Made by a program: the position numbers and the translations under genes. From Leucoraja erinacea (taxonomy: Eukaryota), in assembly GCF_028641065.1 (NCBI RefSeq), contig NC_073400.1:29512001-29576000 (forward strand): DNA of 64,000 nucleotides, written 5' to 3'. Of the stretch, positions 1,163 through 58,872 are shown piece after piece. The notes under the pieces are model-generated. The model ran no database searches. It was not told where the DNA came from and was given only the letters and a program-made list of their open reading frames with translations. Position 1 is the first letter of the stretch, and the number at the start of each line of letters is the position of its first letter.

Positions 1163-4100
1163 GTGAGTGTTAACTCATTCACCCTTGGGTGAACCATTCA
1201 CCAGTTTAAGAAGCACTGGCCTAGGCCACAGTTTCGCTGAACACTTGTGCTTGGTCTGTCGTGACCCAGAATCGCGCTTGAAAGACACCCCATTCTCAAC
1301 CTCCCCTGCTGATGCAGAGCAGCAGCAGTTTACACCATCTGCACGATGCACTGCAGCAACTCACCAAGACTCCCTAGACAGCGCCTTCCAATTGCAACAG
1401 GCTCCGTGTTCAATGCATTATTTTTCACCATTCACACCCACATTGGCTGGGAAGCGCTTTTGGAACGACCTGTACAGGTGGTGAGGGATAGTGTACAGTA
1501 TCTGTCTCTCATCGCAATCTAGGTGGAATTCAACACAGCTAAGAAAATGATTGGGCGGAGTCCCTTGTATACTAGAATGTGTATGTTTGTGAAAGGCTAA
1601 TTTTGCTCTTCAATTTATCAAAGATGCTTCCTTTAGTTTCAGGTGCACTATGGGCTGAGAGCGAAGTAAGAGGGGTTCTGGGAAGAGCGATCACAATCGA
1701 TTGTCACTATGCAGCAGTGTACCGCTCACACACAAAATACTGGTGCCGTGGGACAAGTCGCCAGTGTACACATGTGGGTGAAACAAATGGGAAGAGCGGA
1801 AGAGCGTCATTCACAGATAACCCGGCACGAGGAATATTTACTGTGACTGTGGAGGATCTTCACTCTGCTGATACAGGATGGTACAGTTGTGGAATTACTG
1901 CACCTGGCGAACCAACATTTAAAGTATATCTCCAAATATCTGAAGGTAGGTTTCTCAATGAGTGACTTTATGTCTCCACTTTGGCAACTCATAAAACATT
2001 TGTTAGGTGGGAATCTGGTGCACAGTTCTGGTCGCCGCTTTATAAAACAAAAGATGTGGAAGGTTTGGAGAGGTTACAGAAAATGTCACCGGGATATTTA
2101 GTTGTAGTTTACAAATGTAACTTGGAAACGGATCCTTCGACCCACCGAGTCCACACCGACTAGCGATCACCGGTCACACTAGTTCTATGTTATTCCACTT
2201 CCCCATTCGCTCCCTACACACAATTCTACAATACCGTCATTCACACACATCATTAGTTCAACAGTATCACCATCAACAATTTTATACAAGGAAATTTGAA
2301 CTTTGTTGAGAGTGTTACTGTTGCACTAATGAGGTGTTTGAATATTGGTATTGTAGAATTGTGGCAGAGGTTCAGATTACAAATACTGCAAATTCTGGAA
2401 ACATTGAACAAATAGAGATGGTGCTGCTGTGTACTGGTCCAGTGGCTGACATGGTAGTTCTTTCAGAGGGGAGGATGGAGAGCCACAGAGATGTACAAAT
2501 CTGGTAAATGGATTGTGAGGAGAAGGAGCTTTCTGACAGGCAATTAGGCTGTCGCTTTGAAATGTAGCATCTGAGTAGCTGACATTGTCCTCATCTGTAC
2601 TGGAGTGTGTCCATGTTGATTCCCTTCAAAATTGCGCTCCAGCATACACAGTTTGATTTTAATTAGACAAATGGGCAGCATCCTTGTTGTTTTCAATGTC
2701 TAACAGTGTTGCATAAACGATGCTCCCTTTTCCTGCTGGTAATTCCTGAAATGTATAAGAGAATCCAAGATGTGTCTGATGATTTGTCTGATTTGTGTTC
2801 AGTTTTAGTTGGATAGGGTGCAGAATAGATTTACAAGGATGTTGCGATGACTTGAGGGCCCGACTTCGAGGGACGGGTTATAGACAATAGACAATAGACA
2901 ATAGAAAATTGAGCAGACTAGGACATTATTTCTTGGAGCGCAGTAGGAAGAAGGATGATCTTATGGCAGCTACAAAATCATGTGATGAATAGATCGAGTA
3001 AATGCACAGTCTTTTGCCCCGAGTAGGGGAATCGAGAACCAGAGGACATAGTTTTAAGATGAGGGGGGAATGATTTAACAAGAACCTGGGGAGTAACGTT
3101 TTTACACAATGGTTGGTAGGTATATGAAACGAACAGCCGACAGATGTAGTTATGGCAGGTACTATCACAACATTTAAGAATAATTTGGACAGGTACATGA
3201 ATAGTATAAGTTTAGAGGGTTAAGGGCCAAGCAAGGGCAGGTGGTACTAGTGGAGATTGGGCGTGTTGGTCAGTGCGGGCAGGTTTGACTGAAAGGCCTG
3301 TTTCTACGCTGTATGACTCTATGACTCTATGACTAAGTAGATGGGTGTGTCAGATTCCAACCAGGCAGCTCTGGCTAAGATACAGAGATGTTGGATATTG
3401 GCGAGTGTTTGATTTTATGATGTTCACTCAGTGTCTGACTGTTTGCTCCTTTCCCACAGAACCCGTGTCTGTTCCTGTGCTTGGATTTCTGTCACCAGCC
3501 AATGTTTCCTGTCTCGGGGGCTCATTGACAGTGACAGTGTCCTGTGAGTCGCTCCGGGGATCGCTTCCCATTAGCTACATCTGGTATGAAAAGGCCCCAT
3601 CTGGGGATTCAAAGATCTCAGACAACAATGCCCTGGATCTACATTGTCAATCCTTCAAACACCAGCACCATCAATATTTCTGCACAGCCTCAAATCAACA
3701 TGGATCAAAATCCAGTGAAATGGTCAACGTGTCCATCTCCAGCAGTGACGTGCCCTGCAGTTTCCTAATAAAAATCAACAGCACTGGTAAGTAGTGGAGG
3801 GGATGAGGAGAAGAAGGGGAAGTGGGGGCGGGGTGGTTCATAAAATCACGTGATAAAAGCAGTAATAGACCATTCAATCATGACTGATCTATCTTCCCCT
3901 CTTCACCCCATTCTCCTGCCTTCTCCCCAAAGCCCCGACACCCTGAAATCCATGAACTTTATTTAATTAACTTGTCGAGATTAAAATGATGAAATTATGG
4001 CCCATTTGTCAATACTTGGTTGCTGGGCTCCAGAATTAGATTTCCCAGTGCTGGTGTAGGCCAGCTTCCCTGCTAGAACTTCCTCTTATGTTTACACAGC

Positions 4101-6290
4101 TTTAAGCTAGGTATCTGGTGACATCAGTCCAAGCACTTTCACTTTCCGTCATCATCTCCACATGGCCACTCAAATGTGGGACGGGATCAGTAAATCTGGC
4201 CACAATAAAATCCGAGACGACGGTATTAGATTTGGTCCACTGTGTGAATGTTGTGTATTCAGTACCATCGATACTAATCCCATTTACCAGCACCTCGTCC
4301 ATTGTGGCAATGCAGATACCTCCACCTTCTAGGTTTAAAAATATTTATTGATTGCCTTGAAACATCCTGCTCCAAAAATTAACCATATGTTCTCCACTTT
4401 TACACATATGTGCCGTGCACAATTTATCAAAAAAGACCCCATCTATACTGCTCAGAGTTTTGCACATCTGTAATAGGTTTCCCCTTCCTCGCCTATCCTG
4501 CATGGACTTTTATAAAATCCCTATCTGGATTTTGAAGGTGGATAAAATTAAGAAGGAACTGCAGATGCTGGAAAATTCGAAGGAAGCTAATCGACCATGT
4601 CTAAGGAAGGGTCACGACCCGAAACATCACCTATTGCTTCTCTTCATAGATGCTGCCTCACCCGTTGAGTTTCTCCAGCATTTTTGTCCACCTTCGATTT
4701 TTCCAGCACCTCCAGTTCCTTTTTAAAGATATACTAATAGCTGGTGTTTTGATTGGGAATGCTTTAATGGGGGGGAAAGTTGTGCCTTCCTTTCACTGAC
4801 ATTAAATGTTGTGAGAGTATTGATCTGAATTCACAGAGGCACAGCCTGTAGAATCACAGCCTCACAACGCCACGACCCTGGTTCATTGGGTGCTGTCTAC
4901 GTGTGGTCTGCATGTTTTGCCTTAAAATTGTGTTAGTTTCATTTAAGTGCTCCAATTTCCTCCCAGCTCCCTTCCACCATTAGCATTGATCCTTTTTTAC
5001 TATTCCTGACAATCCATGTGGATTTTATTATAATCTTCCTTGCATCTGCATATTCTTTCTTCCAGGGTATTAGACTGTTCTTTGTATCCTTCCACATCCC
5101 CAGTTTCCCTCTCCCGTGACACCCAGTCTGAAGAAGGTGCTCGACCCAAAACCTCACGCATTCCTTCTCTCCAGAGATGCTGCCTCTCTCGCTGTGTTTT
5201 TCCAGCATTTAGTGTCTATCTACTCCGTATTCACTGTATTAACTGCTCCATCTGATGACTTATTTCTCTTTCTCCGAATCCATTTAACGGTGTAATCTCT
5301 CAATCGCAGCCTTGATGCCATGCTCCAGCAATGGTGTAGTAATTGGTGATCACGAGTTGCCCCCCCCACCCCAGTCCAACTCCCGTTCTTTCTCCAACCT
5401 GATCTCCATTGACTCTGCTGCTTCGCCCCGCTCCACTTCACCAAGATTATGAAGCAAATAACAGGTAAATGTTTCAAAGATAAACCGTCTCGTTTCCTCC
5501 CATTGATTCTGTATCTCTTGCCCTTTGCCCAGTTACATCTCATGGGAAGTGGGGCGCTGGATGTTTTTTCTCCTGCTTGTGATCTGGAGTATCTCAACCG
5601 CGGTGTTCACAAGAGACTCTAAGGTAGGTTTTATTGTCATCATGTTCATAAATTATAGGTGCAGTATTAAGCCATTCAGTCCATCATATCTAATCCGCCC
5701 CCAATCACGGCTGATCTATCCTTCCCTCTCGATCCCATTCACATGCCTTCTCCTCATAACCATTGGAATCCATATTTATCAAGAATATGAAAATATCCGC
5801 CTTAAATATATCAATCGATTTGGATGGATGCAAAATTGCTGGAGTAGCTCAGCGGGACAGGCAGCATCTCCGGTGTGAATTGACTTGGCCCCCACAGCCT
5901 CCTGTGGCAATAAATTCCATAGATTCACCACCCTCTGCCCAAAGCAATTACCTCTCTTCACCGAATGTTTCCAAACGGTTTCCAGTAATGCTTTCAAATA
6001 TCCTGTCAATTGATAGAAACAAAAACCGTGCAAGTTTTCATACCCTGAAGTTAAACCAAATCGCTGTGTAGATGATATCACGAGGTTTTGTCAGGTTGTA
6101 CGTGTGCAGGGTGGATTTCTGTGCCCGGTGTGGATTCTGTGGGGTTCATCTTCCAGACATCAATGTGTTGGGAGTGGTCGGGTCAAATAAAGCGCGGTTC
6201 CCACTGTCAGTCAGTCTGATGACCTCACATTGTCTTTTGCAGAGACGCGATGAGCCAGAATCTCGCCATTCGACCCACGAATTACAATGA
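842..6290 (+). CDS. Gene 1 (5'-partial): CD300/pIgR-like (MDIR-like) multi-Ig receptor, activating type; exons C2a, V2, C2b, candidate micro-stalk, charged TM, short tail
   Basis: Exons 842-1162, 1637-1945, 3460-3786, (5446-5464), 5533-5623, 6243-6290 have AG/GT boundaries and compatible phases if the micro-exon is used; paralogous to genes 2-4. Leader and V1 would lie upstream of the window. Confidence 0.8.
1637..1945 (+). CDS. Gene 1 exon: V-type Ig domain 2 (CD300/pIgR-like)
   Basis: ITIDCHY...KYWC-x6-C...DTGWYSCG with the extra C-C' cysteine pair; tandem acceptors at 1637/1643; GAAG|gtaggt donor. Confidence 0.92.
2380..2745 (-). pseudogene. Inverted fossil cytoplasmic (ITIM) exon in the V2-C2b intron of gene 1
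   Basis: Minus strand tacatttcag|GAA...: ELPAGKGSIVYATL...TVYAGA...VSYSDA with two in-frame stops; aligns to the start of the gene 3 terminal exon EMTALEGTDIYANL. 3' boundary approximate. Confidence 0.65.
2808..3335 (+). mobile_element. CR1 LINE 3' fragment (old; shared at ~17941-18255, ~31290-31805, ~50125-50620)
   Basis: Degenerate ...agaaccagaggacatagttttaagatgag... and (ctatga)n tail; boundaries approximate. Confidence 0.7.
3460..3786 (+). CDS. Gene 1 exon: C2-type Ig domain b
   Basis: cccacag|AACCC acceptor, ACTG|gtaagt donor, phase 1-1; VSCES...YIWYEK...QYFCTASN; 6 nt longer than paralogs. Confidence 0.9.
4549..4725. mobile_element. Penelope-derived short inverted-repeat element
   Basis: aaggaactgcagatgctggaaaattcgaagg ... 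ccttcgatttttccagcacctccagttcctt arms. Confidence 0.7.
5446..5464 (+). CDS. Gene 1 candidate 19-nt stalk micro-exon (DYEANNS)
   Basis: pyrimidine-rich ...ccacttcaccaag|ATTATGAAGCAAATAACAG|gtaaat; converts phase 1 to the phase 2 needed by the TM exon; conserved in gene 2; downstream intron is only 68 nt. Confidence 0.5.
5533..5623 (+). CDS. Gene 1 exon: transmembrane segment with charged residues (SYISWEVGRWMFFLLLVIWSISTAVFTRDSK)
   Basis: tttgcccag| acceptor, AAG|gtaggt donor; hydrophobic stretch preceded by E-x-x-R. Confidence 0.85.
6243..6290 (+). CDS. Gene 1 terminal exon: short Tyr-free tail RRDEPESRHSTHELQ*
   Basis: tcttttgcag| acceptor in phase 0 matches the TM donor; conserved in gene 2; AATAAA at 6431 and 6484. 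Confidence 0.75.
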   Translation, partial: RRDEPESRHSTHELQ

Positions 6291-13292: not shown

Positions 13293-13495
13293 GTGTACTG
13301 ACCCTGGGGGACAGAGCATTTACACAACAGGTACAATAACAGCACTGCCTGCACTTCAGACCGAGAGACACATTGGCCGTGAAGCAATATGACACTCATG
13401 GAAACGATTTAAATAATATTCAAAAATGTATATATTGCCATTAAACAGTTCATTTGCTCAAAGCACACCTGAAAGTTTCTCCCCTCTGCTTCCAG

Positions 13496-13853
13496 GTGCA
13501 GTGTGGGGCCAGGACTTATGTAAGAGGAGTTGTGTGGAAGAAGTAGTGCGATCAACAATCGATATGTCACTATGCAGCAGAGTACCGCTCCACACACAAA
13601 AATACTGGTGGAAATGGGTGGATCATTCAATGTACAGTTTTAGTGGTGAACGAATGGGCAGCACGGGCGGAGTGGAAGAGTGGTCAATCACAGATAAACC
13701 CACAGACAGGTTTTACGTGCAACGAGGACATTTTACTTGCTGTGGGACTTAGGAGGATCTTCAGTCTGGAGATACGGGACTGTACCGCTGTGGAACTAGA
13801 TTTATACCCGTGGTGCGGATCCAATATTTAACGTCAGGTCCAAGTATTTGACG
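13496..13853 (+). pseudogene. Gene 2 V1 exon, frameshifted as assembled
   Basis: Clear nucleotide similarity to 26902-27222 and 43469-43789, including the GACG|gtacgt donor, but many small insertions break the frame. Confidence 0.75.
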
Positions 13854-14880
13854 GTACGTTTCGCAGCGATATGGAGACTTGATGTCTCCACTGAAATGCC
13901 CCATCCATGTTTAATCTTATCCGGGATAGTGTGACTTCAAAGGGGGTGTTCAGCAAAGTTCCCTGCCGGTGGGTCCTGAAACTGTAAAAAATAAATTCAC
14001 CCTGTGTCAGTGGTTAGCATTCCCACTCAAACTAATGATCCAGGATGACAGGAACAGATTAGTGAGAACACAAGTGTTGCTCGCCGGTCTGAAACCCGGA
14101 GAATATTAACAGTTTTCCATCAGTCCACAGAGGGGCACAGCCCACACCCCCGCCCCCCAAACTCAGGGATCAGTCACTTCCTCCTCACCTGAGCCACCAC
14201 CACCGCACCGCCCGGCAGCCAGGCCACCCTCTCCACACGGACATTTACCATTCTCAGAGAAGCACGAATAACCTCATCTTTCGCTCCCGCACCCGCCGTC
14301 GCACACACCACATGAATCACCGACATTTCGCCACCTCCAACGGGAATCCCCCCCAAAACTGGCCATATCTTTAATCTCGCACCGCTGCGGGCTCTGCTTT
14401 CCGAAAGACAACCCTGGTCAACGTCTTCGTCCTCCCCCGGAAAGTAACAGACGGTTCCACACTACCAGGAAATTAACTTCGATACTTCTAAAAATGTGCT
14501 TTACAAACTGAGGAGGAAGTCAGGATTGTGGACTCATTGGGTCAGTTCAAATTATTCCCTGCATTTGTTCAACCTCAACTCTGTGCGCAAACCCAACGAT
14601 TCCCGGAGTCTGAGGCTGAACCACTGTCCTCTCACAACTTTCTCACCATCCGCTCTCCGAACCGCGGCCCAGTCCCTGCTGACTTGTCCAGGCGCGAGCC
14701 GGGTTCATTGGGGAATAGAAACCTGTCCCAGATGAGCAGCAGGACATTTGGCTCCCCATTCAGTTTAGTTTATATGTCACGCTTTACCGAGGTTACAGTG
14801 AAAAAGATTTGTGTGTCCGATCTAGAACCAGCCAGCAGAAAGACCAATCCATGATTAGAATCGATCCTCTTACAGTGCAT

Positions 14881-17633
14881 ATTCAATATTCAGGAGGGAT
14901 AGACAGAAAGGAAAAGGAGGTAGGTGGGGGTAGCGTTACTGATTAGAGAGGGGATTAATGCAATGGAAATGAAGGACATTAGTTTGGAGGATATGGAATC
15001 GGTATGGGTAGACCTGCGAAACACTAAGGGGCAGAAAACGCTGGTGGGTGTTGTGTACAGGCCACCTAACAGTAGTAGTGAAGTTGGAGATGGTATCAAA
15101 CAGGAAATTAGAAATGCGTGCGACAAAGGCAAAACAGTTATAATGGGTGACTTCAATCTACATATAGATTGGGTGAATCAAATTGGCAGGGGTGCTGAGG
15201 AAGAGGATTTTCTTGTAATGTATGCTGGATAGTTATCTAAATCAACATGTAGAGGAACCAACGAGAGAGCAGGCTATTTTAGACTGGGTATTGAGTAATG
15301 AGGAATGGTTAGTTAGCAATCTTGTTGTACGTGCCCCCTTGGGCAAGAGTGACCATAATATGGTTGAGTTCTTCATTAGGATGGAGAGTGACATTGTTAA
15401 TTCAGAAACAATGGTTCTGAACTTAAAGAAAGGTAACTTTTAGGGTATGAGAGACGGAATTGGCCAAGATTGACTGGCAATTAATTCTAAAAGGGTTGAC
15501 GGTGGATATGCAATGGAAGACATTTTAAAGACTGTATGGATGAACTACAAAAATTGTTCATACCAGTTTGGCAAAAGAATAAATCAGGGAAGGTAGTACA
15601 TCCATGGATAAACAAGGGAAATCCAGGGATAGTATCAAAGCGAAGGATGATGCGTACAAATTAGTCAGAAAAAAGCAGCATACCGGAGGACTGGGAGAAA
15701 TTCAAAGACCATCAGAGGAGGACAAAGGTCTTAATTAGGAAAGGAAAAATAGATTATGAAAGAAAACTGGCAGGGAACATAAAAACTGACTGCAAACGTT
15801 TTATAGATATGTGAAAAGAAAAAGATTAGTTAAAACAAATGTAGGTCCCTTGCAGTCAGAAACAGGTGAGTTGATCATGGGGAACAAGGATATGGCGGAC
15901 CAATTGAATAACTACTTTGGTTCCGTCTTCACTAAGGAAGACATAAATAATTTGCCGGAAATAGCAGGGGACCGCGGGTCAAAGGAGTTGGAGGAATTGA
16001 GTGAAATCCAGGTTAGCCGGGAAGTGGTGTGGGGTAAATTGAATGGATTAAAGGCCGATAAACCCCCCAGGGCCAGATAGGCTGCATCCCCGAGTACTTA
16101 AGGAAGTAGCTCCAGAAATATGGTGGATGCATTAGTAATAATCTTTCAAAACGCTTTAGATTCTGGAGTAGTTCTGAGGATTGGCGGGTAGCAAACAAAC
16201 CCCCACTTTTTAAGAAGGGAGGGAGAGAGAAAATGGGGAATTACAGACCAGTTAGTCTAACATCGGTAGCGGGGAAACTGCTAGAGTCAGTTATTAAAGA
16301 TGGGATAGCAGCACATTTGGAAAGTGGTGAAATCATTGGACAAAGTCAGCATGGATTTACGAAAGGTAAATCATGTCTGACGAATCTTATAGAATTTTTC
16401 GAGGATGTAACTATAGTAGCGTGGATAGGGGAGAACCAGTGGATGTGGTGTATCTGGACTTCCAGAAGGCTTTCGACAAGGTCCCACATAAGAGATTAGT
16501 ATACAAACTTAAAGCACAAGGCATTGGGGGTTCAGTATTGATGTGGATAGAGAACTGGCCCAGAAGCAAAGAATGGAAAACGGGTCCTTTTTCACAATGG
16601 ACAGTAGTGGGGTACACCCAAGGCTCAGTACTGGGACCCCAGCTATTTACAATATATATTAATGATCTGGATGAGGGAATTGAAGGCAATATCTCCAAGT
16701 TTGCGGATGACACTAAGCTGGGGGGCAGTGTTAGCTGTGAGGAGGATGCTAGGAGACTGCAAGGTGACTTGGATAGGCTGGGTGAGTGGGCAGACTGTTT
16801 GGCAGATGCAGTATAATGTTGATAAATGTGAGGTTATCCATTTTGGTGGACAAAAACGGGAAAGCAGGCTGTTATCTAAATGGTGGCCGATTGGGAAAGG
16901 GGGAGATGTGGCGAGACCTGTGTTTCATGGTACTCCAGTCATTGAAGGTAGGCATGCAGGTGCAGCAAGCAGTAAAGAAAGCGAATGGTATGTTAGCTTT
17001 CATTGCAAAAGGATTTGAGTATAGGAGCAGGGAGGTTCTACTGCAGTTGTACAGGGTCTTGGTGAGACCACACCTGGAGTATTGCGTACAGTTTTGGTCT
17101 CCAAATCTGAGGAAGGACATTATTGCCATAGAGGGAGTGCAGAGACGGTTCACCAGACTGATTCCTGGGATGTCAGGACTGTCTTATGAAGAAAGACTGG
17201 ATAGACTGGGTTATACTCTCTAGAATTTAGGAGATTGAGAGGGGATCTTATAGAAACTTACAAAATTCTTAAGGGGTTGGACAGGCTAGATGCGGAAGAT
17301 TGTTCCCGATGTTAGGGAAGTCCAGGACAAGGGGTCACAGCTTAAGGATAAGGGGGAAATCCTTTAAAACCGAGATGAGAAGAACTTTTTTCACACAGAG
17401 AGTGGTGAATCTCTGGAACTCTCCGCCACAGAGGGTAGTTGAGGCCAGTTCATTGGCTATATTTAAGAGGGAGTTAGATGTGGCCCTTGTGGCTAAGGGG
17501 ATCAGGGGGTATGGAGAGAAGGCAGGTACGGGATACTGAGTTGGATGATCAGCCATGATCATATTGAATGGCGGTGCAGGCTCGAAGGGCCGAATGGCCT
17601 ACTCCTGCACCTAATTTCTATGTTTCTATGTTT
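14881..17633 (+). mobile_element. CR1-clade LINE (HER1-like), 5'-truncated and frameshifted; APE endonuclease + RT
   Basis: ORF pieces GVVYRPPN, IMGDFN, LGKSDHN, NYRPVSLTS, YLDFQKAFDKVPH, QGSVLGP, KFADDTKL, RPHLEYCVQFWSP; (tttctatg)n tail; interrupts sequence that is continuous near 26200. Confidence 0.93.
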
Positions 17634-18377
17634 ATATAGATACATGAAAAGGAAATAACGTTCAGTGTAAGGTAAAGTCAGCAAAGTCCGATCAAGGGTA
17701 GTCAGAGGGTCATCAAAGATGTAGACGGTAGTTCAGCACTGCACTCTGGATGTGGTAGGATTATTCAGATGCCAGATAACAGCTGGGAAGAAACTTCCAA
17801 AATCTGGGGGTGTACGTTTTCACGCAATTAACGCTCTCCAGTAAGGGACCAGCTATATTGTAACCCGTCCGTCCTCTGTCCACAGTCAGGGCGTTGTAAA
17901 GGCGGTGAATGTCTAAACACGGGTCCGGCCCAGTGTCATTTGCCCAGAGGAGGGGAATCGAGAACCAGAGGACATTGTTTTAAGATGAGGGGAAAATGAT
18001 TGAACAAGAACCTGGGGAGTAACGTTTTTACACAAAGGTTGTTAGGTAAATGAAACAAACTGCCGACGGATGTACTTATGGCAGGTTTTCGCAATATTTA
18101 AGAAAGGTTTGGACAGCTACATGAATAAGATAGGTTTAGAGGGTTAAGGGCCAAGCAAGTGCAGGTGGAACTAGTGTAGATTGGTCGTGTTGCTCAGTGC
18201 GGGCAAGTTAGACCGAAGGGCCTGTTTCTATGCTGTGTGATTCTATGACTCTATGTAGATGGATGGGTCAGATTCCAACCCGGCGGCTCTGGCTAAGATA
18301 CAGAGATGGTGGATATTGGCGAGTGTTTGATTTTCAGATGTTCACTCAGTGTCTGACTGTTTGCTCCTTTCCCACAG

Positions 18378-18698
18378 AACCCGTGTCTGTTCCTGTGCTT
18401 GGGTTTCTGTCACCAGCCAATGTCTCCTGTCCCGGGAGCTCAGTGACAGTGTCCTGTGAGTCTGTCCGGGGATCGCTTCCCATTAGCTACGGCTGGTATG
18501 AAACGACCCCATCTGTGGATTCAAAGATCTCAGACAACAATGCCCTGGATCTACATTGCCAATCATTCAAACGACAGAACCATCAATATTATTGCACAGC
18601 CTCAAATAATAATGGATCAAAATCCAGTGAAATGGTCAACGTGTCCATCTCCAGGAGTGACGTGCCCGGCAGTTTCCTAGTAAAAATCAACGGCACTG
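18378..18698 (+). CDS. Gene 2 exon: C2-type Ig domain b
   Basis: Intact 321-nt phase 1-1 exon with the same splice sites as paralogs; DVPGSF instead of DVPCSF. Confidence 0.85.
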
Positions 18699-19995
18699 GT
18701 AAGTAGTGGAGGGAATGGGGAGAAGAAGGGGAAGTGGGGGTGGGGTGGTTCATAAAATCACGTGATAAAAGCAGTAATAGACCATTCAATCATGGCTGAT
18801 CTATCTTCCCCTCTTCACCCCATTCTCCTGCCTTCTCCCCAAACCCCCGACACCCTGAAATCCATGCACATTATTTAATTAACATCAAGATTAAAATGAT
18901 GGAATTATAGCCCATTTGTCAATACTTGGTTGCTGGGCTCCAGACGTAGATTTCCCAGTGCTGGTGTAGACCAGCTTCCCGGCTAGAACTTCCTCTCATG
19001 TTTACACAGCTTTAAATTAGGTTTGCAGTGACATCAGTCCAAGCACATTCATTTTCCCACCACCATCTCCACACGACCGACAATCAAATGTGGGAAGGTA
19101 ACAGATATTATCCATAAATGTGGCCACAGTTAACTCCTAGACGATGGTATCGCATTTGGGTCACTGTGTTAATGTTGACCATTCAGTACTATAAATACTC
19201 ATCCCACTTACCAGCACCTCGTCCATTGAGGCAATTCAGGTACCTCTATCTTCTAGGTTTAAAAATATTTCTTGATACCCTAGAAACATCCTGCTCCTCA
19301 ACTTAACCATATGTTCTCCGCTTTTACACATATCTGTCTTGCAAAATGTTCCCCAAAATACCCTATCTACGCTGCTCACAGTTGTGCACACCTGTAATAG
19401 GCCCCCCCTTTTACACCTGCTCTGCATGGAATTTTATAAAACCTCTATCCAACCCCTCCCCATAACTGTAAAATTTCATCCCAAGCAATACTCCTCTCAA
19501 ATGAAATTGGACCCTTTTGATTAGTTTGTGGATACATCGTGGAAACAGGCTCTTCGGCCCATTGAGTACACAACGTCCAGTATTCACCAGTACACTAGTT
19601 CCATGGGGCCAATTTACAGAAGCCAATTAACCACCAAACTTGCACGACTTCAGATTGCGGGGAAATTTGAGAACTTGGAGAATGCCCACGCGGTCACAGG
19701 GAGGAGGTACAAATTCCATACAGACGGCATCCGTAGTCAGGATCGAACCCGTGCCTCTGGCGCTGTAACGCAGCAACTCTACCCCAGCGCCACCGTGCCG
19801 TCTACACCTGGCGCCAGAGTTGTTACCAGCACTCCAGCTTGTTATGATCACATCTCCCATTTGCTGCAAATCACACTGAAGAAACATTACCCTGTCTGTT
19901 AAGCCTATCAACTCCATTCATCGGAAATTCATACCTACTTGTTGAACTGCAAGTGAAAGGCAGTGAAACTGACTTGTATTACCTTGTTCCAACAG

Positions 19996-20044
19996 GTCAT
20001 GAATATTCTTGTGCAAATTTGATAACATCCAATTACTCTGCAAG
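19996..20044 (+). CDS. Gene 2 49-nt stalk exon (GHEYSCANLITSNYSA)
   Basis: ttccaacag| acceptor, AAG|gtaaac donor, phase 1-2; paralog of 33634-33682 and 52299-52347. Confidence 0.75.
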
Positions 20045-21345
20045 GTAAACCTCTCTGTATCCAATGAAGTTACAATGTATTTATTGCTGGCGTTTTGATA
20101 GTGAATTCTTTAATTGGGAGAAAGTTGTGCCTTCCTTTCACTGACATTAAATGTGTGAGAGTATTGATCTGAATGCACAATGGCACGGCCTGTAGAGCCA
20201 CAGTCTCACAACGCAACGACATATATTCATTAGGTGCTGTCTGTGCGTTATCTGCATGTTTTGCCTTTTAATTGTTTTGGTTTCATTTAAGTGCATTCCC
20301 AGTTTCCTCTCCGCTCCCAAAGATGTGCCAGTTGTGAATTGCCCCGTGTGTACAGGGAAAGCGGTTGAATCTGTGAAGAATGGGTATGGCCGGGGAAGGG
20401 GGGGGGGGGGGGGGGGGGGGGGGCGGTGGGGGAGGGGGGGGGGAGGGGGGGGGTACTTGGTGAGAAAGTGGGGGAAATAAAAATAGGATTGACACGGGAA
20501 TCGTGTGAAAGCAGTTGACTGAAGGGCCAAATGACCTTTGTCTAGACTGTTTCTCTTTGGGTCTTTGATCCAATGAACCCAAATATCAGGAAACATAATC
20601 AATGAAAGTGAGAACACTTTGTTATTTATCTTATTACAATTGAAATAGATCTGGCTTTCTATCACATTCTTGTGTGATATTTACGTTAGGATATATCGGC
20701 CACGCCGATATGAACGAACCTGTAACCGATTTTTCGAGCACGATTTCCCCATCCACACACCTACCGCGTTAATCCAAGTAATATCGAGGGTGTGAGATTA
20801 AGCATTATCATTTTAAATTAATTTTATTAATTGGTCTCATCTGTTTCCATATTTATTGCCCCATCCCCCACCATTTGAATTAACATTTTTTTAATTATTC
20901 CTGTCTATCCATATGGATTTTATTATAAACTTCCTTGCAGCTGCGTTTTCTTTCTTCCAGGTTATTACACTGTTCTTTGTATCCTTCCACATCCCCAGTT
21001 TCCCTCTCCCGTGACACCCAGTCTGAAGAAGGGTCTCGACCCAAATCCTCACACATTCCTCTCCAGAGATGCTGCCTCTCTCGCTGTGTTTTTCCAGCAT
21101 TTAGTGTCTATTTACTCCGTATTCACTGTATTCACTGCTCCATCTGATGACTTATTTCTCTTTCTCCGAATCCATTTAACAGTGTAATCTCTCATTCCCA
21201 GCCTTGCAGTCATGCTCCAGCAATGGTGTAGTAATTGGTGATCACGAGTTGCCCCCCCCCCCCCCCCCCCCCTGTCCAACACCCGTTCTTTCTCCAAAGT
21301 GATCTTCATTGACTCTGCTGCTTCGCCCCGCTCCACTTCACCAAG

Positions 21346-21364
21346 ATTATGCAGCAAATAACAG
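21346..21364 (+). CDS. Gene 2 candidate 19-nt micro-exon (DYAANNS)
   Basis: Paralog of 5446-5464 with both splice sites conserved; phase 1-2. Confidence 0.45.
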
Positions 21365-21432
21365 GTAAATGTTTCAAAGATAAACCGTCTCGTTTTCTCC
21401 CAGTGATTTTGTATTTCTTGCCCTTTGCCCAG

Positions 21433-21523
21433 TTACATCTCATGGGAAGTGGGGCGCTGGGTGTTCTTTCTCCTGCTCGTGATCTGGAGTATCTCAACTG
21501 CGGTGTTCACAAGAGATTCTAAG
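21433..21523 (+). CDS. Gene 2 charged TM exon (SYISWEVGRWVFFLLLVIWSISTAVFTRDSK)
   Basis: Near-identical to 5533-5623; splice sites intact. Confidence 0.85.
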
Positions 21524-21926: not shown

Positions 21927-21974
21927 AGACGCGATGAGCCAGAATCTCGCCATTCGACCCACAAATTACAATGA
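21927..21974 (+). CDS. Gene 2 terminal exon RRDEPESRHSTHKLQ*
   Basis: Paralog of 6243-6290; AATAAA at 22115. Confidence 0.75.
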   Translation, partial: RRDEPESRHSTHKLQ

Positions 21975-28500: not shown

Positions 28501-31500
28501 ACCCGATTCTTCACCCATTCTTTCTCTCGAGAGATGCTGCCTGCTCCACTATGATACTCCAGCCTTGTGTGTCTAGCTTAAAGGGATCGTTATTAGTTTT
28601 GGCCTTTAATTTCCAAGGCATTGAATGGGGTTTTTGGTACGCTGCTCTTCATCAGTGAGACCATTCAGAACATAATCTGAGATAATCTGCTTCAGACGTG
28701 CAGATGTTGAGTCCACACTTTGGGAATTGTGTTCAGCTTTAGTCCCTCAGCTCCAAGAAAAGTGCCGTTGAGGTGGACAGCGTGCAGAAAGGTTTTAGGG
28801 CGACGCTGCCTGGACAGGGTGGGATTGACGCAGGGAGCGATTGGACAAACTCAGACTTCATTCCTTGGTGTGGAAATGATTGAGCGAGGAACTTATAGAA
28901 CTGTATCAATCACGAGAAGCATGTTCATTTTCCCACGATATGTGGGATGAGGAAGTGGAGGACAGAGGTAATGGGAACTATTTAAAGAGGGGAGAATAGT
29001 AAGGTGTCACTTACTGTAATGGCATGTTTTGTACAGATGAGTGGCCGAAGCTGAACACAAATCGCCAAGTTCGACCTCAACAATATATGTACAACTGAAA
29101 CATAACATCCCAACTTCTGTTCTGAGGGACAACATTCGCTACACATTGGGTGATATTTATATGGAACCTGCTGGCAGAGGAAGTTGTTGAGGCAGTTAGA
29201 ATAATAGCATTTAAAATACATTTTGGACAGTTGCGTAGATTGGGATCATTGCGAGTGATAAAGGAGAAACGTGGACATATGGAAATGGCCAAAAAGACAT
29301 GTTGGTCGGCATGAATGAGCTGTTGTGATGGGCATCTTTCGGTACTCTATACCTCTAACCTTCTTCGATTTGTGGGCTTCGCACACTCACAGAGATGTAG
29401 ATGAGCCGGTGAGATATCAACTAGACGGTTCGGGCTGAGATAAAGGGCTGCTGAGATTTAGCATGTGTTTGGTGTATAACTGTTCATACAGGTGACTGAA
29501 TGTTTGCTCCATTCCCACAGAACCAGTGTCTGCTCCTATGCTCAGATATCTGTCACCAGCAAATGCCTCACGTCTCGGAGGCTCAGTGTCAGTGTCGTGT
29601 GAGTCTGTCAGTGGATCCCTTCCCATCAATTACACATGGTGTGAGAAGAACGAGCATCGGTGTTCAACGATCTTGTCTGGCAATCAATTGGATCTGAGTT
29701 GTGAAATCCTCAGAGGTCAACATCGTCAATATTACTGCACAGCCACAAATAATCGTGGGATAAAACCCAGTGAAATACTCAACGTGAATGTCTCCAATGG
29801 AGAAGGAACGTGCAGTTATGTGACAGAAATCAACAATGCAGGTGAGTGTTAACTCATTCACCCTTGGGTGAACCATTCAGCAGTTTAAGAAGCACTGGCC
29901 TAGGCCACAGTTTCGCTGAACACTTGTGCTTGGTTTGTCATGACCCATAATCGCGCTTGAAAGACACTCCATTCTGAACCTCCCCCGCAGATGCAGAGCA
30001 GCAGCAGTTTACACCATCTGCACGATGCACTGCAGCAACTCACCAAGACTCCCTAGACAGCGCCTTCCAATTGCAACGGGCTCCGTGTCCAATGCATCAT
30101 TCTTCACCATTCACACCCACATTGGCTGGGAAGCGCTTTGGAACGACCTGTGCAGATGGTGAGGGACAGTGTACAGTATCTGTCTCTCATCGCAATCTAG
30201 GTGGAATTTAACACAGCTAAGAAAATGATTGGGCGGACTCCCTTGTATACTAGAATGTGCATGTTTGTGAAAGGCTAATTTTGCTCTTCAATTTATCAAA
30301 TATGTTTCCTTCAGTTTCAGGTGCACTGTGGGCGGAGAGTGATGTAAGAGGGGTTGTGGGAAGAGCGATCACAATCGATTGTCACTATGCAGCAGTGTAC
30401 CGCTCACACACAAAATACTGGTGCCGTGGGACAAGTCGCCAGTGTACACATGTAGGTGAAACAAATGGGAAGAGCGGAAAGGCGTCAATCACAGATAACC
30501 CGGCACGAGGAATATTTACTGTGACTGTGGAGGATCTTCACTCTGGAGATACAGGATGGTACAGATGTGGAATTACTACATCTGGCGAACCAACATTTAA
30601 AGTATATCTCCAAGTATCTGAAGGTAGGTTTCTCAATGAGTGACTTTATGTCTCCACTTTGGCAACGCATAAAACATTTGTTAGGTGGGAGTCTGGTGCA
30701 CAGTTCTGGTCGCCGCTTTATAAAACAAAAGATGTGGAAGGTTTGGAGAGGTTACAGAAAAGGTCACCGGGATATTTAGTTGTAGTTTACAAATGCAACA
30801 TGGAAACGGATCCTTCGGCCCACCGAGTCCACACCGACTGGCGATCACCGGTCACACTAGTTCTATGTTATTCCACTTCCCCATTCGCTCCCTACACACA
30901 ATTCTACAATACCGCCATTCACACACCTCATTAGTGCAACATTATCACCATCAACAATTTTATGCAAGGAAATTAAAACGTTGTTGAGAGTGATACTTTT
31001 GCACTAATGGGGTGTTTGACAGGGAATTTGGCTGTCGCTTTGAAATGTAGCATCTGAGTAGCTGACATTGTCCCCATCTGTACTGGAGTGTGTCCATGTC
31101 GATTCCCTTCAAAATTGCGCTCCAGCATACACAGTTTGATTTTAATTAGACAAATGGGCAGCATCCTTGTTGTTTTCAATGTCTAACAGTGTTGCATAAA
31201 CGATGCTCCCTTTTCCTGCTGGTAATTCCTGAAATGTATAAGAGAATCCAAGATGTGTCTGATGATTTGTCTGATTTGTGTTCAGTTTTAGTTGGATAGG
31301 GTGCAGAATAGATTTACAAGGATGTTGCGATGACTTGAGGGCCTGACTTCGATGGACGGGATATAGACAATAGACAATAGAAAATTGAGCAGACTAGGAC
31401 ATTATTTCTTGGAGCGCAGTAGGAAGAAGGATGATCTTATGGCAGCTACAAAATCATGTGATGAATAGATCGAGTAAATGCACAGTCTTTTGCCCCGAGT

Positions 31501-48300: not shown

Positions 48301-51300
48301 CAGTTTACACCATCTGCACGATGCACTGCAGCAACTCACCAAGACTCCCTAGACAGCGCCTTCCAATTGCAACAGGCTCCTTATTCAATGCATCATTCTT
48401 CACCATTCACACCACATTGGCTGGGAAGCGCTTTGGAACGACCTGTGCAGGTGGTGAGGGACAGTGTACAGTATCTGTCTCTCATCGCAATCTAGGTGGA
48501 ATTCAACACAGTTAAGAAAATGATTGGGCGGATTCCCCTGTACACATTGACGCATACTATAATGTGTATGTCTGTGAAAGGCTAATTATGCTCTTCAATT
48601 TATGAAATATGTTTCCTTCAGTTTCAGGTGCACTGTGGGCTGAGAGCGAAGTAAGAGGGGTTGTGGGAAGAGCGATCACAATCGATTGTCACTATGCAGC
48701 AGTGTACCGCTCACACACAAAATACTGGTGCCCTGGGACAAGTCGCCAGTGTACACATGTAGGTGAAACAAATGGGAAACATGGACAGAGCGGAAGAGTG
48801 TCAATCACAGATAACCCGGCACGAGGAATATTTACTGTGACTGTGGAGGATCTTCACTCTGGAGATACAGGATGGTACAGATGTGGAATTACTGCATCTG
48901 GCGAACCAACATTTAAAGTACATCTCCAAGTATCTGAAGGTAGGTTTCTCAATGAGGGACTTTATGTCTCCACTTTGGCAACGGACAAAACATTTGTTAG
49001 GTGGGAGTCTGGTGCACAGTTCTGGTCCCCGCTTTATAAAACAAAAGATGTGGAAGGCTTGGAGAGGTTACAGAAAATGTCACCGGGATATTTAGTTGTA
49101 GTTTACAAATGCAACATGGAAACGGATCCTTCGGCCCACCGAGTCCTCACTGACTAGCGATCACCGGTCACACTAGTACTATGTTGTTCCACTTTCCCAT
49201 TCGCTCCCTACACACAATGCTACAATACCGCCATTCACACACCTCATTAGTGCAACAGTATCACCATCAACAATTTTATACAAGGAAATTTAAAAGTTGT
49301 TGATAGTGATACTGTTGCACTAATGAAGTGTTTGAATATTGGTATTGTAGAATTGTGGCAGAGTTTCAGATTAAAAGATTAACTATAGATTGTAGGAATT
49401 GTAAAACAAAGAGAGATGGTGCTGCTGTGTACTGGTCCAGTGGCAGACATGGTAGTTCTGGCAGCTGGGAGAATGGAGAGAGACAGAGATGTATAAATCT
49501 GGTAAATGGATTGTGAGTCGATGGATCTTTCTGAAGGACAATTTGGCTGTTGCTTTGAAATGTAGTATCTGAGTAGCTGACATTGTCCTCATCTGTGCTG
49601 GAATGTGTCCCTGTCGATTTCCTATGAAATTGCATTTCTGCAACAGTTTGATTTTGATTCGACATATGGGCAGCTTCCTTGTTGCTTTGAATAGCCAACA
49701 CTGTTGCATAAACGATGCTACCTTTTCATCGTTATCCATATGCAAGGATATGGGGGAAGTTTTTTAGGACCGAGATGAGAAAAACATTTTTCACACAGAG
49801 AGTGGTGAATCTCTGGAACTCTCTGCCACAGAAAGTAGTTGAGGCCAGTTCATTGGCTCTATTTAAGAGGGAGTTAGATGTGGCCCTTGTGGCTATATGT
49901 ATCAGGGGGTATGGAGAGAAGGCAGGTACAGGATACTGAGTTGGATATTCAGCCATGATCATATTGAATGGCGGTGCAGGCTCGAGGGTCTGAATGTCCT
50001 ACTCCTGCACCTATTTTCTATGTTATATGTTTTCCTGCTGGTAATTCCTGAAATGTAAAAGAGAATCTAAGATTGTCCGATGATTTGTCTGATTTGTGGT
50101 CAGTTTAAACCACCATGTTATCGGAAAGATGCTGACAAGTTGGATAGGGTGCAGAGAAGACTTAGAATGACTTGAGGACCCGACCCAGAGGGAGGAGTTG
50201 AGCAGTCTAGCACTTTACTTTTTGGAGCGCAGGAGGATGAGGGATGATCTTCAGGCAGGTAAAAAAAAAACCATGCAACGAATAGTTCGAGTAAATGCAC
50301 AGAGTCTGTTGCCCAGAGTAGGGGAATCGAGAACCAGAGGACATAGTTTTAAGATGAGGAGAATGATTTAACAAGAATCTGGGGAGTAACGTTTTTACAC
50401 AAGGTTGGTAGGTATATGAAACGAACTGCTGACGGAAGCAGTTATTGCAGGTACTATCATAACATTCAAGAAAAATTTGAACAGGTACATGAATAGGATT
50501 AGTTTGGAGGGTTAAGGGCCAAGCATGGGCCGGTGGAACTAGTGTAGATTGGGCGTGTTGGTCAGTGCGGGCAAGTTAGACAGAAGGAACTGTTTCTACG
50601 CTGCATGACTATGGTTATATGTAGATGGATGGGTCAGATTCCAAACTGGCGGCTCTGGCTATGATACAGAGATGTTGGATATTGGCGAGTGTTTCATTTT
50701 CAGATGTTGACTCAGTGTCTGACTGTTTGCTCCTTTCCCACAGAACCCGTGTCTGTTCCTGTGCTTGGATTTCTATCACCAGCCAATGTCTCCTGTCTCG
50801 GGGGCTCAGTGACAGTGTCCTGTGAGTCGTTCCGGGGATCCCTTCCCATTAACTACACCTGGTATGAAAAGACCCCATCTGTGGATTCAAAGATCTCAGA
50901 CAACAATGCCCTGGATCTACATTGTCAATCCTTCAAACACCAGCACCATCAATATTATTGCACAGCCTCAAATAAACGTGGATCAAAATCCAGTGAAATG
51001 GTCAACGTGTCCATCTCAAGCAGTGACGTGCCCTGCAGTTTCCCAGTGAAAATCAACGGCACTGGTAAGTAGTGGAGGGAATGGGGAGAAGAAGGGGGAG
51101 TGGGGGTGCGGTGGTTCATAAAATCACGTGATAAAAGCAGTAATAGACCATTCAATCATGGCTGATCTATCTTCCCCTCTTCACCCCATTCTCCTGCCTT
51201 CTCCATATAACCCCTGACACCCTGAAATCCATGCACGTTATTTAATTTTTATCAAGATTAATATGATGGAATTATGGCCCATTTGTCAATACTTGGTTGC

Positions 51301-57300: not shown

Positions 57301-58872
57301 TTCAGACTGATCGGGGGTGGGGGTAGGTCGGGACAAGAAAGGGAAAAGGAGGAGTAGCCAGAAGGCTGGAGGGTGGGAGGAGATAGTAGGGGAGCTGAGG
57401 AAGGGGAGGAGACAGCAAGGACTAACAGAATTGGAAGAATTCGATGTTCATGCCCCGGGGGTGTAGACTCCCCAAACGGAATATGAGGTGCTGTTCCTCC
57501 AATTTCCGGTGCTGCTCGCTGTGGCCATGGAGGAGACCCAGGACAGAGAGGTCGGAGGCGGAGTGGGAGGGGGAGTTGAAGTGCTGAGCCACCGGGAGGT
57601 CAGCTTGGTTATTGCGGACCGAGCGGAGGTGTTCGGCGAAACGATCGCCCAACCTCCGCTTGGTCTCACCGATATAGATCTGCTGGCATCTAGAGCAGCG
57701 GACGCAATAGATGAGGTTGGAAGAGATGCAGGTAAACCTCTGTCGCACCTGGAACGACTGCTTGGGTCCTTGAACGGAGTCGAGGGGGGAGGCAAAGGGA
57801 CAAGTGTTGCATCTCCTGCGGCCGCAAGGGAAAGTGCCCGGGGAGAGGGTGGACCGAGAGGGAAGGGAAGAATTGACAAGGGAGTTATGGAGGGAGCGGT
57901 CTTTGCGGAAGGCAGATATGGGGGGAGGTTGGGCGATCGTTTCGCCGAACACCTCCGCTCGGTCCGCAATAACCAAGCTGACCTCCCGGTGGCTCAGCAC
58001 TTCAACTCCCCCTCCCACTCCGCCTCCGACCTCTCTGTCCTGGGTCTCCTCCATGGCCACAGCGAGCAGCACCAGAAATTGGAGGAACAGCACCTCATAT
58101 TCCGTTTGGGGAGTCTACACCCCCGGGGCATGAACATCGAATTCTCCCAATTCTGTTAGTCCTTGCTGTCTCCTCCCCTTCCTCAGCTCCCCTACTATCT
58201 CCTCCCACCCTCCAGCCTTCTGGCTACTCCTCCTTTTCCCTTTCTTGTCCCGACCCACCCCCACCCCCGATCAGTCTGAAGAAGGGTTTCGGCCCGAAAC
58301 GTTGCCTATTTCCTTCGCTCCATAGATGCTGCTGCACCCGCTGAGTTTCTCCAGCTTTTCTGTGTAACCTTCGATTCTCCAGCATCTGCAGTTCCCTCTT
58401 AAACAATTAACCTACAAGCCTGTTGTAGGCGCTGTCAGGCAGCAACTCTACTGCTGCTCCACCGTACTGCACTATCTTTGTGTTGTAAACAGCAGCAATG
58501 GCTTGTTCTGTACACTGAACAGTTTGAGACCTACTTTGTAATAGACCTCTGTTGAGGACCTTTCAAATCTATTAGGTTGTAAAATTGGATTGTGTTACAT
58601 TTTAGGAAATGGCAGTGTTGAAAGAGGACCACGTTGATGCAAATCTGGAAAACAACAGGGCAGGTGACCATTTGGATAACAATGAAGGTGGAATCACGTA
58701 TGCAGTGGTGAAATTTCAAAAGAAGACAAGACCAAGGCAGCATGTGGCTGAAAACGCTGTCGTCTACGCAGATGTCAAGTTTCATCGCAACTGCCCAAAG
58801 GGCATTCGGAAACCCCAATCTCCTGGGACTCCAGAGAACCCTGAGTCAACCTATGCCTCTGTCGTTTCTTAG
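42349..58872 (+). CDS. Gene 4: complete CD300/pIgR-like (MDIR-like) inhibitory receptor, 593 aa
   Basis: join(42349-42397,43469-43789,47075-47395,48622-48939,50744-51064,52299-52347,55404-55492,56955-57001,58606-58872) = 1782 nt; all GT-AG, same phases as gene 3. Confidence 0.9.
43469..43789 (+). CDS. Gene 4 V1 exon
   Basis: ITIDCHY...KYWCDWRRSPC...DAGWYRCG. Confidence 0.93.
44917..45557 (-). mobile_element. Rex1/Babar-type LINE 3' fragment
   Basis: Minus ORF ITVWFGNSSAWDRKALQRAVRSAER...HPNNGLFQLLRSGKR...SFFSQAIRIL; (ttgac)n tail. Confidence 0.85.
45817..46031 (-). mobile_element. CR1 LINE 3' fragment
   Basis: catagaaacatagaaattaggtgc..., reverse complement of the 3' end of the 14881-17633 family. 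Confidence 0.85.
47075..47395 (+). CDS. Gene 4 C2a exon
   Basis: 321-nt phase 1-1 Ig exon. Confidence 0.9.
47967..48193. mobile_element. hAT-type MITE
   Basis: TIRs cagtgcatcttaaact / agtttaagaagcactg; 8-bp TSD gcc(a/t)aggc; internal ttcattcaccct repeats. Confidence 0.75.
48622..48939 (+). CDS. Gene 4 V2 exon
   Basis: 318 nt; retains the HGQ segment missing from V2 of genes 1 and 3. Confidence 0.92.
49366..50047 (-). pseudogene. Inverted fossil ITIM exon, gene 4 copy, split by a CR1 fragment
   Basis: Acceptor at 50047 (ELPAGK), CR1 3' piece ~49727-50030, then an open frame GSIVYATV...VSYSDT to 49366. Confidence 0.6.
49727..50030 (+). mobile_element. CR1 LINE 3' fragment inserted in the fossil exon
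   Basis: FFTQRVVNLWNSLPQKVVEASSLALFKRELDVAL; flanked by a ttttc duplication; absent in genes 1 and 3. Confidence 0.85.
50744..51064 (+). CDS. Gene 4 C2b exon
   Basis: 321-nt phase 1-1 Ig exon. Confidence 0.9.
52299..52347 (+). CDS. Gene 4 stalk exon GLEYSCETSKRSKYTSR
   Basis: 49 nt, phase 1-2. Confidence 0.82.
52355..52591. mobile_element. Non-autonomous Penelope-derived fold-back element
   Basis: ~98-nt inverted arms 52387-52484 / 52494-52591; flanked by repeated cttcaaggt(a/t)aact; absent after the gene 3 stalk exon. Confidence 0.8.
52825..53620 (-). mobile_element. Degenerate Penelope-like fragment
   Basis: Reverse-complement similarity to the GIY-YIG C-terminus and pseudo-LTR; boundaries approximate. 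Confidence 0.7.
53625..54020 (+). mobile_element. CR1 LINE 3' fragment
   Basis: MFPPVGDSRTRGHSLRM...RVVNLWNSLPQ. Confidence 0.75.
55404..55492 (+). CDS. Gene 4 neutral TM exon
   Basis: Identical to 34806-34894 by manual comparison. Confidence 0.92.
56165..56570 (-). mobile_element. Penelope-like fragment
   Basis: Minus ORF LPVAQHFNSSPHSHTNLSVLGLLHCQSETQHKLEEQHLIFCLGSLHPSGMNIDFSNFK. Confidence 0.8.
56955..57001 (+). CDS. Gene 4 cytoplasmic exon 1 ESKRNTSHGEDNNETQ
   Basis: 47 nt, phase 1-0, paralog of 35434-35480. Confidence 0.82.
57231..58403 (-). mobile_element. Young 5'-truncated Penelope-like element with GIY-YIG endonuclease segment and inverted pseudo-LTR
   Basis: CGRRRCNTCP...SSNLIYCVRCSRCQQIYIGETKRRLGDRFAEH...; 427-bp inverted arms 57231-57657 / 57924-58350; 15-bp flanking direct repeat caattaacctacaag; absent in the gene 3 intron. 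Confidence 0.93.
58606..58872 (+). CDS. Gene 4 terminal exon with ITIMs (ITYAVV, VVYADV, STYASV)
   Basis: ttttag|GAA acceptor; three ITIM-consensus motifs; first Tyr motif replaced by VDANL. Confidence 0.92.
   Translation, partial: EMAVLKEDHVDANLENNRAGDHLDNNEGGITYAVVKFQKKTRPRQHVAENAVVYADVKFHRNCPKGIRKPQSPGTPENPESTYASVVS

What the first reader, a model, noticed from the sequence alone, without database searches (positions are those of the whole stretch)
2380..2745. Fossil inhibitory cytoplasmic exon lying antisense inside the V2-C2b intron of genes 1, 3 and 4
Seen: the minus strand has an intact acceptor (tacatttcag|GAA, compare tacattttag|GAA of the real terminal exon in gene 4). It opens ELPAGKGSIVYATL, which aligns to EMTALEGTDIYANL, followed by TVYAGA and VSYSDA: one canonical ITIM and two further Tyr motifs. 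Genes 1 and 3 share two stops; the gene 4 copy has no stops but is split by CR1. Inference: a third, divergent inhibitory tail type was inverted into the intron before the cluster expanded, implying a lost or distant paralog.
Basis: partly seen in the sequence, partly recalled or inferred. Interest (0 to 1): 0.7.

Follow-up and report, generated by a model that had tools for sequence, protein, structure and literature searches.

The report
Dead inverted copy of neighbour's exon
A broken, back-to-front copy of the last exon of an intact, expressed immune-receptor gene nearby sits in the same intron of five skate receptor genes, and it is likely an ordinary duplication scar that was carried along as those genes multiplied.

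Summary
The antisense exon relic is real, but its source is not lost or distant. An intact sense copy (84% nucleotide identity) lies 12 kb past the window end. It is the last exon of an open six-exon, single-V receptor gene with four tyrosine motifs. RNA reads show this donor spliced and expressed, and an orthologous tail exists in Rhinoraja.

The relic covers 2509-2745, not 2380-2745. It lacks the fourth motif and the stop codon. It carries the donor's acceptor-side intron and the same CR1 junction, so it was copied as DNA, not as RNA. It sits in 5 of 13 V-C2 introns examined, always after the same V type and always antisense. It shows no significant constraint, and no read covers its private flanks.

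The host genes are MDIR3- and MDIR5-like skate receptors of the CD300/pIgR-like kind. The relic is useful only as a lineage tracer: neighbouring inhibitory-type and predicted activating-type genes share ectodomain modules, the known paired-receptor pattern. This scan noted the same relic before in another genome (unchecked note). Verdict: an ordinary duplication scar.

The parts
2509..2745 (-). Relic of the first 79 codons of the donor gene's terminal ITIM exon (gene 1 copy); stops at 2661 and 2628; fourth Tyr motif and stop codon absent. The intact donor exon lies outside the window at G000:C24:29588260-29588520, + strand
   Evidence: 37 of 228 nt differ from the donor exon; the final HNP codons match the Rhinoraja orthologue; donor shown
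2746..2788 (-). Co-copied acceptor-side intron of the donor (polypyrimidine tract and AG)
   Evidence: 9 of 42 aligned nt differ from the donor intron; alignment
2789..3335 (+). CR1-type LINE 3' fragment ending in ATGACTCT repeats; its truncation point next to the acceptor is the same as in the donor intron
Evidence: Alignment continues from exon through intron into the repeat.
2380..2508 (.).
   Evidence: No match to the donor or its downstream 5.5 kb above shuffles; genome search finds it only in this cluster
2219..2363 (.). Imperfect 145-bp palindrome about 150 bp from the relic's breakpoint, in all five V2 introns
   Evidence: DNA fold -44 kcal/mol, z -11.9, 0 of 200 shuffles; the 10 genome matches are all in these five introns
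31017..31228 (-). Gene 3 copy of the relic, same two stops, cut short by a deletion
   Evidence: 98% identical to the gene 1 copy
49507..50047 (-). Gene 4 copy: codons 1-6 at 50047-50030, CR1 insertion 49723-50029 with a 5-nt flanking repeat, the rest at 49722-49507; no stop, second Tyr deleted
1642..1945 (+). Host V2 exon (V-set Ig) of gene 1
   Evidence: Pfam V-set E 1.8e-12; 83% identical to clearnose skate MDIR3, 77% to MDIR5
3460..3789 (+). Host C2b exon of gene 1
   Evidence: tblastn map; the gene 4 counterpart hits Ig_2/Ig_3 below the curated cut-off
5531..5623 (+). MDIR5-type transmembrane exon of gene 1 (Arg at the outer end; predicted activating type)
   Evidence: 87% identical to MDIR5 over 31 aa
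35892..36167 (+). Real inhibitory tail exon of gene 3 (MDIR3 type), only about 30% like the relic
58606..58872 (+). Real inhibitory tail exon of gene 4 (MDIR3 type)

Best explanation
This is a broken, inverted DNA copy of part of the last exon of an intact, expressed neighbouring receptor gene, and it is likely functionless. Inferred mechanism: a DNA-level rearrangement inside the cluster (replication template switch or ectopic recombination) copied the donor's last intron, with its CR1 fragment and acceptor, plus 79 codons of the exon, back to front into the V2-C2b intron of one ancestral MDIR gene. One break fell inside the exon, so the fourth motif and the stop were left behind; the other fell in the CR1. 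Being antisense, the piece is invisible to host splicing and is removed with the intron. It then multiplied passively with the V2-C2b module into five genes and decayed differently in each. Shown: identity, donor, orientation, DNA-level copy, distribution, decay. Inferred: the exact repair pathway, a single origin, and lack of function.
For: Genome search gives a sense-strand 84% match 12 kb beyond the window and nothing outside the cluster (9 matches from 7 scored candidates; 4 protein matches). Six donor exons with GT-AG borders give one open 282-codon frame. All 27 RNA reads laid on the relic (13, 7, 7 and 0 in four runs) come from one strand. Listed differences are donor letters, 13 loose ends continue into the donor's own C-terminus and 5 into the donor's upstream exon; depth is 0 on the relic-only flanks 2440-2511 and 2752-2788. 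The orthologous tail in Rhinoraja is 74% identical over 99% of the exon. Intron and CR1 junction are co-copied. Tail relic in 5 of 13 introns, all after a V2-type exon. An open frame in the gene 4 copy is expected by chance (P 0.43-0.48). Between genes 1 and 4 the relic diverges more than its flanks (33/234 against 26/434; Fisher p 0.0009).
Against: The gene 4 branch has 7 synonymous changes of 19 (neutral P 0.07-0.13), and dN/dS is 0.47 for gene 1 vs gene 4: a weak hint of past coding constraint. The same test does not show constraint on the donor branch either (4 of 23 synonymous), so it has little power. Host-gene expression in the RNA runs was not measured, only 6-32% of each run was read, and at position 2727 two of six X16 reads do not show the donor letter. 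CR1 similarity alone does not prove co-copying: another CR1 in the region scores higher against the donor's CR1 than the relic-adjacent ones; the shared junction carries the argument. A second inverted donor piece (stalk exon) lies in another intron in an order that a single simple insertion does not explain.
Confidence: 0.85

Rival explanations
1. The relic is the remains of a larger or complete sister copy of the donor gene that once lay nested antisense in this intron and may have worked for a time; this is the first reader's 'lost paralog' in weakened form.
For: The relic keeps states shared with Rhinoraja and lost in the local donor (9 of 19 differing sites, plus the HNP codons). Trees join donor with Rhinoraja against the relics (93/91; 91/92). 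A second inverted piece, the stalk exon with flanks (677 bp, 84%), lies in another V-C2b intron. Slight synonymous excess on the gene 4 branch.
Against: No inverted leader, V, TM or small cytoplasmic exon of donor type was found in 264-324 kb. The two pieces are not collinear. A donor+relic clade is not rejected (p-AU 0.06). The synonymous excess is not significant. Ancestral states are equally explained by an old copy of the donor itself.
Confidence: 0.1
2. The relic is kept as a regulator: host pre-mRNA introns carry an antisense copy of the donor's ITIM exon that could pair with donor mRNA, or an antisense transcript uses the intact acceptor.
For: The acceptor AG is intact in all five copies. 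The host intron is by geometry complementary to donor mRNA at 84%.
Against: No reads on the host-sense strand or on relic-only flanks in the three runs that had reads. Two of five copies have lost most of the exon, one is split by CR1, and divergence is not lower than in the flanks.
Confidence: 0.03
3. Assembly artefact or chance resemblance.
For: Tandem immune clusters are hard to assemble; relic DNA was not checked against raw DNA reads.
Against: The three long copies differ from each other by 2-14% and all five carry their own insertions and deletions; alignment score to the donor is 231 against a shuffle mean of 25, 0 of 2000.
Confidence: 0.02

Closest known systems
Modular domain immune-type receptors (MDIR2, MDIR3, MDIR5) of clearnose skate; CD300/pIgR/TREM-like family
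   Same: Host V2 is 83% identical to MDIR3; the gene 3 tail is 78% identical to the MDIR3 tail; the gene 1 TM is 87% identical to MDIR5. The donor V hits pIgR, CD300 (CMRF35-like) and TREM2 structures. [quoted passage not shown]
   Different: The donor has one V, a Ser/Thr stalk and a tail only about 30% like the MDIR2 and MDIR3-type tails. It matches none of the three MDIR sequences retrieved (V 66% to MDIR3 and MDIR5). MDIR1 and MDIR4 were not retrieved, so it could correspond to one of them.
Unprocessed (duplicated) pseudo-exon fragments in tandem immune-receptor clusters (general knowledge, recalled)
   Same: DNA-level partial copy with intron, decay by stops, deletions and retroelement insertion, passive multiplication with the host module.
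   Different: It is inverted, sits inside an intron of sister genes, and can be followed through five descendants.
Paired receptors homogenised by gene conversion: SIGLEC11/16 (PMC5701461), CD300A/C (PMC12447643), Xenopus CEACAM (PMC5112662); search listing and start of abstracts only
   Same: Neighbouring inhibitory-type and predicted activating-type genes share ectodomain modules: gene 1 with gene 3 (99/98), and the two minus-strand genes with each other (100/100). Grouping the two activating-type modules is rejected (p-AU 3.6e-9).
   Different: Signalling and ligands are untested here; duplication followed by tail swapping is not separated from gene conversion.

Membership tests
Unprocessed (DNA-level) pseudo-exon | Identifiable intact parent gene | tested here: met
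   Donor with open six-exon frame, spliced reads, orthologous tail
Unprocessed (DNA-level) pseudo-exon | Parent's intron sequence copied along | tested here: met
   Acceptor tract 9/42 differences; shared CR1 junction
Unprocessed (DNA-level) pseudo-exon | Disabling lesions and no purifying selection | tested here: met
   Stops, deletions, CR1 insertion; open frame in gene 4 is neutral at P about 0.45; the selection test has low power
Unprocessed (DNA-level) pseudo-exon | Not transcribed as a spliced exon | tested here: inconclusive
   27 reads in 4 runs, donor-type where assignable, none on relic-only flanks; shallow, and host expression not measured
Processed (retro) pseudogene | Upstream exon joined without intron; 3' end with poly(A) | tested here: not met
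   Intron, not the upstream exon, precedes the acceptor; the copy breaks off inside the coding exon
Dispersed repeat | Copies at many unlinked loci | tested here: not met
   9 of 9 DNA matches and 4 of 4 protein matches lie in one 155-kb stretch of C24; counts are lower bounds
MDIR (host genes) | V and C2 Ig modules closely related to named MDIR proteins | tested here: met
   83% and 77% V identity to MDIR3 and MDIR5; tail and TM matches
MDIR (donor gene) | Orthology to a named MDIR | tested here: inconclusive
   Same cluster, leader and V type, but no one-to-one match to MDIR2, 3 or 5; MDIR1 and 4 not retrieved; defining paper not held
ITIM-bearing inhibitory receptor (donor) | [ILVS]xYxx[LV] motifs after an uncharged TM (consensus recalled) | tested here: met
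   IVYATL, VTYSEV and SIYATV fit; TVYAEV has T at the first position; TM has no charged residue
ITIM-bearing inhibitory receptor (donor) | Phosphorylation and SHP-1/2 recruitment | not testable with these tools
   Needs a cell assay
Paired activating/inhibitory receptors | Ectodomains group by neighbourhood, not by signalling type | tested here: met
   Five-module tree and AU test; V and C2 exon trees
Paired activating/inhibitory receptors | Adaptor binding through the charged TM residue; shared ligand | not testable with these tools
   The activating label is inferred from the TM Arg and short tail

The most novel reading that the evidence does not exclude
The relic, together with the inverted stalk-exon piece, is what remains of a complete inhibitory receptor gene that lay nested antisense inside an intron of its sister receptor, worked there for a time, and was then spread as a fossil through both activating and inhibitory genes by ectodomain exchange.
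Probability: 0.1. Interest if true: 0.45.

Novelty: new member of a known kind. Interest (0 to 1): 0.2.

Why it matters
As a feature it matters little: it is a duplication scar. Its practical value is twofold. It led to an intact, expressed single-V four-tyrosine receptor of the skate MDIR cluster that matches none of the three MDIR sequences retrieved. It also works as a neutral lineage marker: its shared lesions pair gene 1 (predicted activating type) with gene 3 (inhibitory type), and the two minus-strand genes with each other. This fits ectodomain exchange between paired receptors in a cartilaginous fish.

Tried and rejected
Lost or distant paralog as stated: rejected. A shifted-frame reading of 2508-2480 as the fourth motif (QSIYQ..TS, seen): set aside as probable chance once the Rhinoraja tail showed that homology runs in frame to HNP. 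Host-intron duplication flanking the insert: weak and inconsistent (1-114 of 300 shuffles reached the score across 13 introns). Homology of 2219-2512 to the donor's downstream 5.5 kb: none convincing (best 5-6 of 100 shuffles). Poly(A) signals in the relic on the host strand: none. Run search: no RNA holder listed; this is no evidence either way. First read lay on the whole donor locus: swamped by repeats; only low exon depth with a one-strand bias in X16 and X19 was readable, and I do not rest on it. X20 gave no reads (no test). CR1 identity as proof of co-copying: not discriminating. The MDIR paper (Cannon 2006, id from the reference list) and a related review are not held, so their text and supplements were not seen and may already describe the donor as MDIR1 or MDIR4. 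Paper searches found no description of this relic; the library lacks most subscription journals.

Full report
Observation. The minus strand at 2745 has an intact AG acceptor and reads ELPAGKGSIVYATL...TVYAGA...VSYSDA...KAPSPHNP, with stops at 2661 and 2628. Copies lie at 31228-31017 (same two stops) and 50047-49507 (no stop, split by a 307-bp repeat insertion, second tyrosine deleted). Against the real gene 3 tail the peptide scores 60, with 0 of 2000 shuffles reaching it. Its left 130 bases (2380-2508) are not exon-derived.

The source is next door. A DNA search of the own genome gave 9 matches, all within 155 kb of contig C24, one of them on the sense strand 12 kb past the window end at 84% identity; a protein search gave the same four longest copies. 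After fetching the flanks, that match proved to be the last exon of a gene with leader (window-equivalent 65862), V (70235), Ser/Thr stalk (71919), uncharged TM (74661), small cytoplasmic exon (75613) and tail (76260-76520; G000:C24:29588260-29588520). All borders are GT-AG and the frame is open for 282 codons, with motifs IVYATL, TVYAEV, VTYSEV and SIYATV (the start of the small exon was chosen among four trials as the only one with AG and an open frame). The relic scores 231 against this exon. A Rhinoraja protein model carries the orthologous tail (74% over 99%; 2 hits among 73 candidates), directly after a multi-domain gene as here.

Expression. Four RNA runs were laid on 2440-2788 at 80% likeness: 13, 7, 7 and 0 reads, all from one strand, the one expected for donor mRNA if the libraries are stranded in the usual way. 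Listed differences are donor letters. Thirteen loose ends continue into the donor's C-terminus and five into the donor's upstream exon, which confirms the predicted splice. Depth is zero on the relic's private flanks. Limits: 6-32% of each run was read, tissues are unknown, host expression was not measured, two of six reads at 2727 in X16 do not show the donor letter, and X19 has depth 1 at 2740-2751. An earlier lay on the whole donor locus was swamped by repeats.

Anatomy and mechanism. Homology to the donor runs from inside the exon through the acceptor tract (9 of 42 differences) into a CR1-type fragment that is truncated at the same point in donor and relic. An RNA copy would have the upstream exon here, so the copy was made as DNA. 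One break lies after the HNP codons, which the local donor has since lost but Rhinoraja keeps. The other lies somewhere in the CR1; the donor's CR1 has lost its 3' end, so it cannot be placed. CR1 identity alone is not discriminating. A 145-bp imperfect palindrome lies 150 bp from the first break (z -11.9) and occurs only in these five introns; whether it caused, marks or predates the event is unknown. Template switching or ectopic recombination is my inference.

Distribution and age. Of 13 V-downstream introns examined, 5 hold the tail relic: three in the window and two in minus-strand genes 55 and 75 kb upstream, always antisense to the host. These follow 5 of the 6 V exons of one clade (99/98); the sixth loses intron homology after 118 bp. 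The two outside copies share a tandem duplication and keep only about 48 exon bases plus, in one, the far end. Where donor and Rhinoraja differ (19 sites), relics side with Rhinoraja at 9, with the donor at 8, neither at 2. Trees join donor and Rhinoraja (93/91; 91/92), but a donor+relic clade is not rejected (p-AU 0.06). The copy is thus likely about as old as the split between these skates, or older. A second inverted donor piece, the stalk exon with flanks (677 bp, 84%), lies in another V-C2b intron; its position is not collinear with the tail relic, so one larger or two separate events remain open.

Constraint. Between genes 1 and 4 the relic differs at 33 of 234 sites against 26 of 434 in the 5' intron (p 0.0009) and 4-5% in the flanking exons. 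Simulation gives P 0.43-0.48 for no stop on the gene 4 branch and P 0.07-0.13 for its 7 synonymous changes of 19. Pairwise dN/dS ranges from 0.47 to 1.14. The donor branch shows no synonymous excess either, so the test is weak. Nothing significant points to function.

What the hosts are. The V2 exon is 100% identical to a Leucoraja erinacea model on a contig of the same length as C24, and 83% to clearnose skate MDIR3. Genes 3 and 4 have MDIR3-type tails; gene 1 and one outside host have an MDIR5-type TM with an Arg and a short tail, which I read as activating by analogy. The donor V resembles pIgR, CD300 and TREM2. [quoted passage not shown] A tree of the five C2a-V2-intron-C2b modules pairs gene 1 with gene 3 (99/98) and the two outside genes (100/100), and rejects grouping by signalling type (p-AU 3.6e-9). 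The relic's lesions pair the genes the same way. This is the paired-receptor pattern reported for SIGLEC11/16, CD300A/C and CEACAMs (search listing and abstract starts only).

Novelty. Four searches found no paper on this relic, within a library that lacks most subscription journals. This scan's notes hold the same relic in another genome with the same reading (e1-10275594) and a note on ectodomain swapping (e1-9542959); both are unchecked AI notes seen, after my reading was formed (one search found nothing nearby). Verdict: a real but ordinary inverted pseudo-exon with a living parent; interest 0.2.

Noticed in passing
L022, about G000:C24:29461623-29462292 (window-equivalent -50377..-49708; reaches into L020/L021 border): Second inverted relic of the donor gene: stalk exon with intact AG and GT plus flanking repeats, 84% identical, antisense in a V-C2b intron of a minus-strand gene; it keeps residues shared with Rhinoraja that the local donor lacks.
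   Followed up: partly
window 3790-5530: Gene 1 lacks the short hinge exon that gene 2 (19995-20042) and MDIR5 have between C2b and TM. Direct splicing would shift the frame, as the public model P0020 does, so gene 1 is predicted to be secreted or a pseudogene.
   Followed up: partly
window 13495-21971: 'Gene 2' has a degenerate V exon with a stop and no leader was found for it, but it has C2b, hinge, MDIR5-type TM and tail exons; it looks like a partial duplicate of gene 1.
   Followed up: no
window 2219-2363 and paralogous V2 introns: Cluster-private 145-bp imperfect palindrome, 75-80% self-complementary, of unknown origin.
   Followed up: partly
G000:C24 about 29.40-29.65 Mb: The cluster has two arms in opposite orientation that meet head to head about 20-27 kb upstream of the window; more distant V exons continue at window-equivalent 117 kb and 133 kb.
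   Followed up: no
protein P0090 (unnamed short contig): A donor-type V and stalk joined to an Arg-bearing TM and short tail: a likely activating counterpart of the donor in some skate.
   Followed up: no
proteins P0001, P0002, P0010, P0020: Public gene models fuse neighbouring genes of this cluster; the Rhinoraja model joins a multi-domain gene to the donor orthologue and has two TM segments.
   Followed up: no
window 57231-58350: Two 427-bp arms of a repeat, 99.3% identical and inverted, in the last intron of gene 4: a recent inverted duplication or an assembly feature.
   Followed up: no
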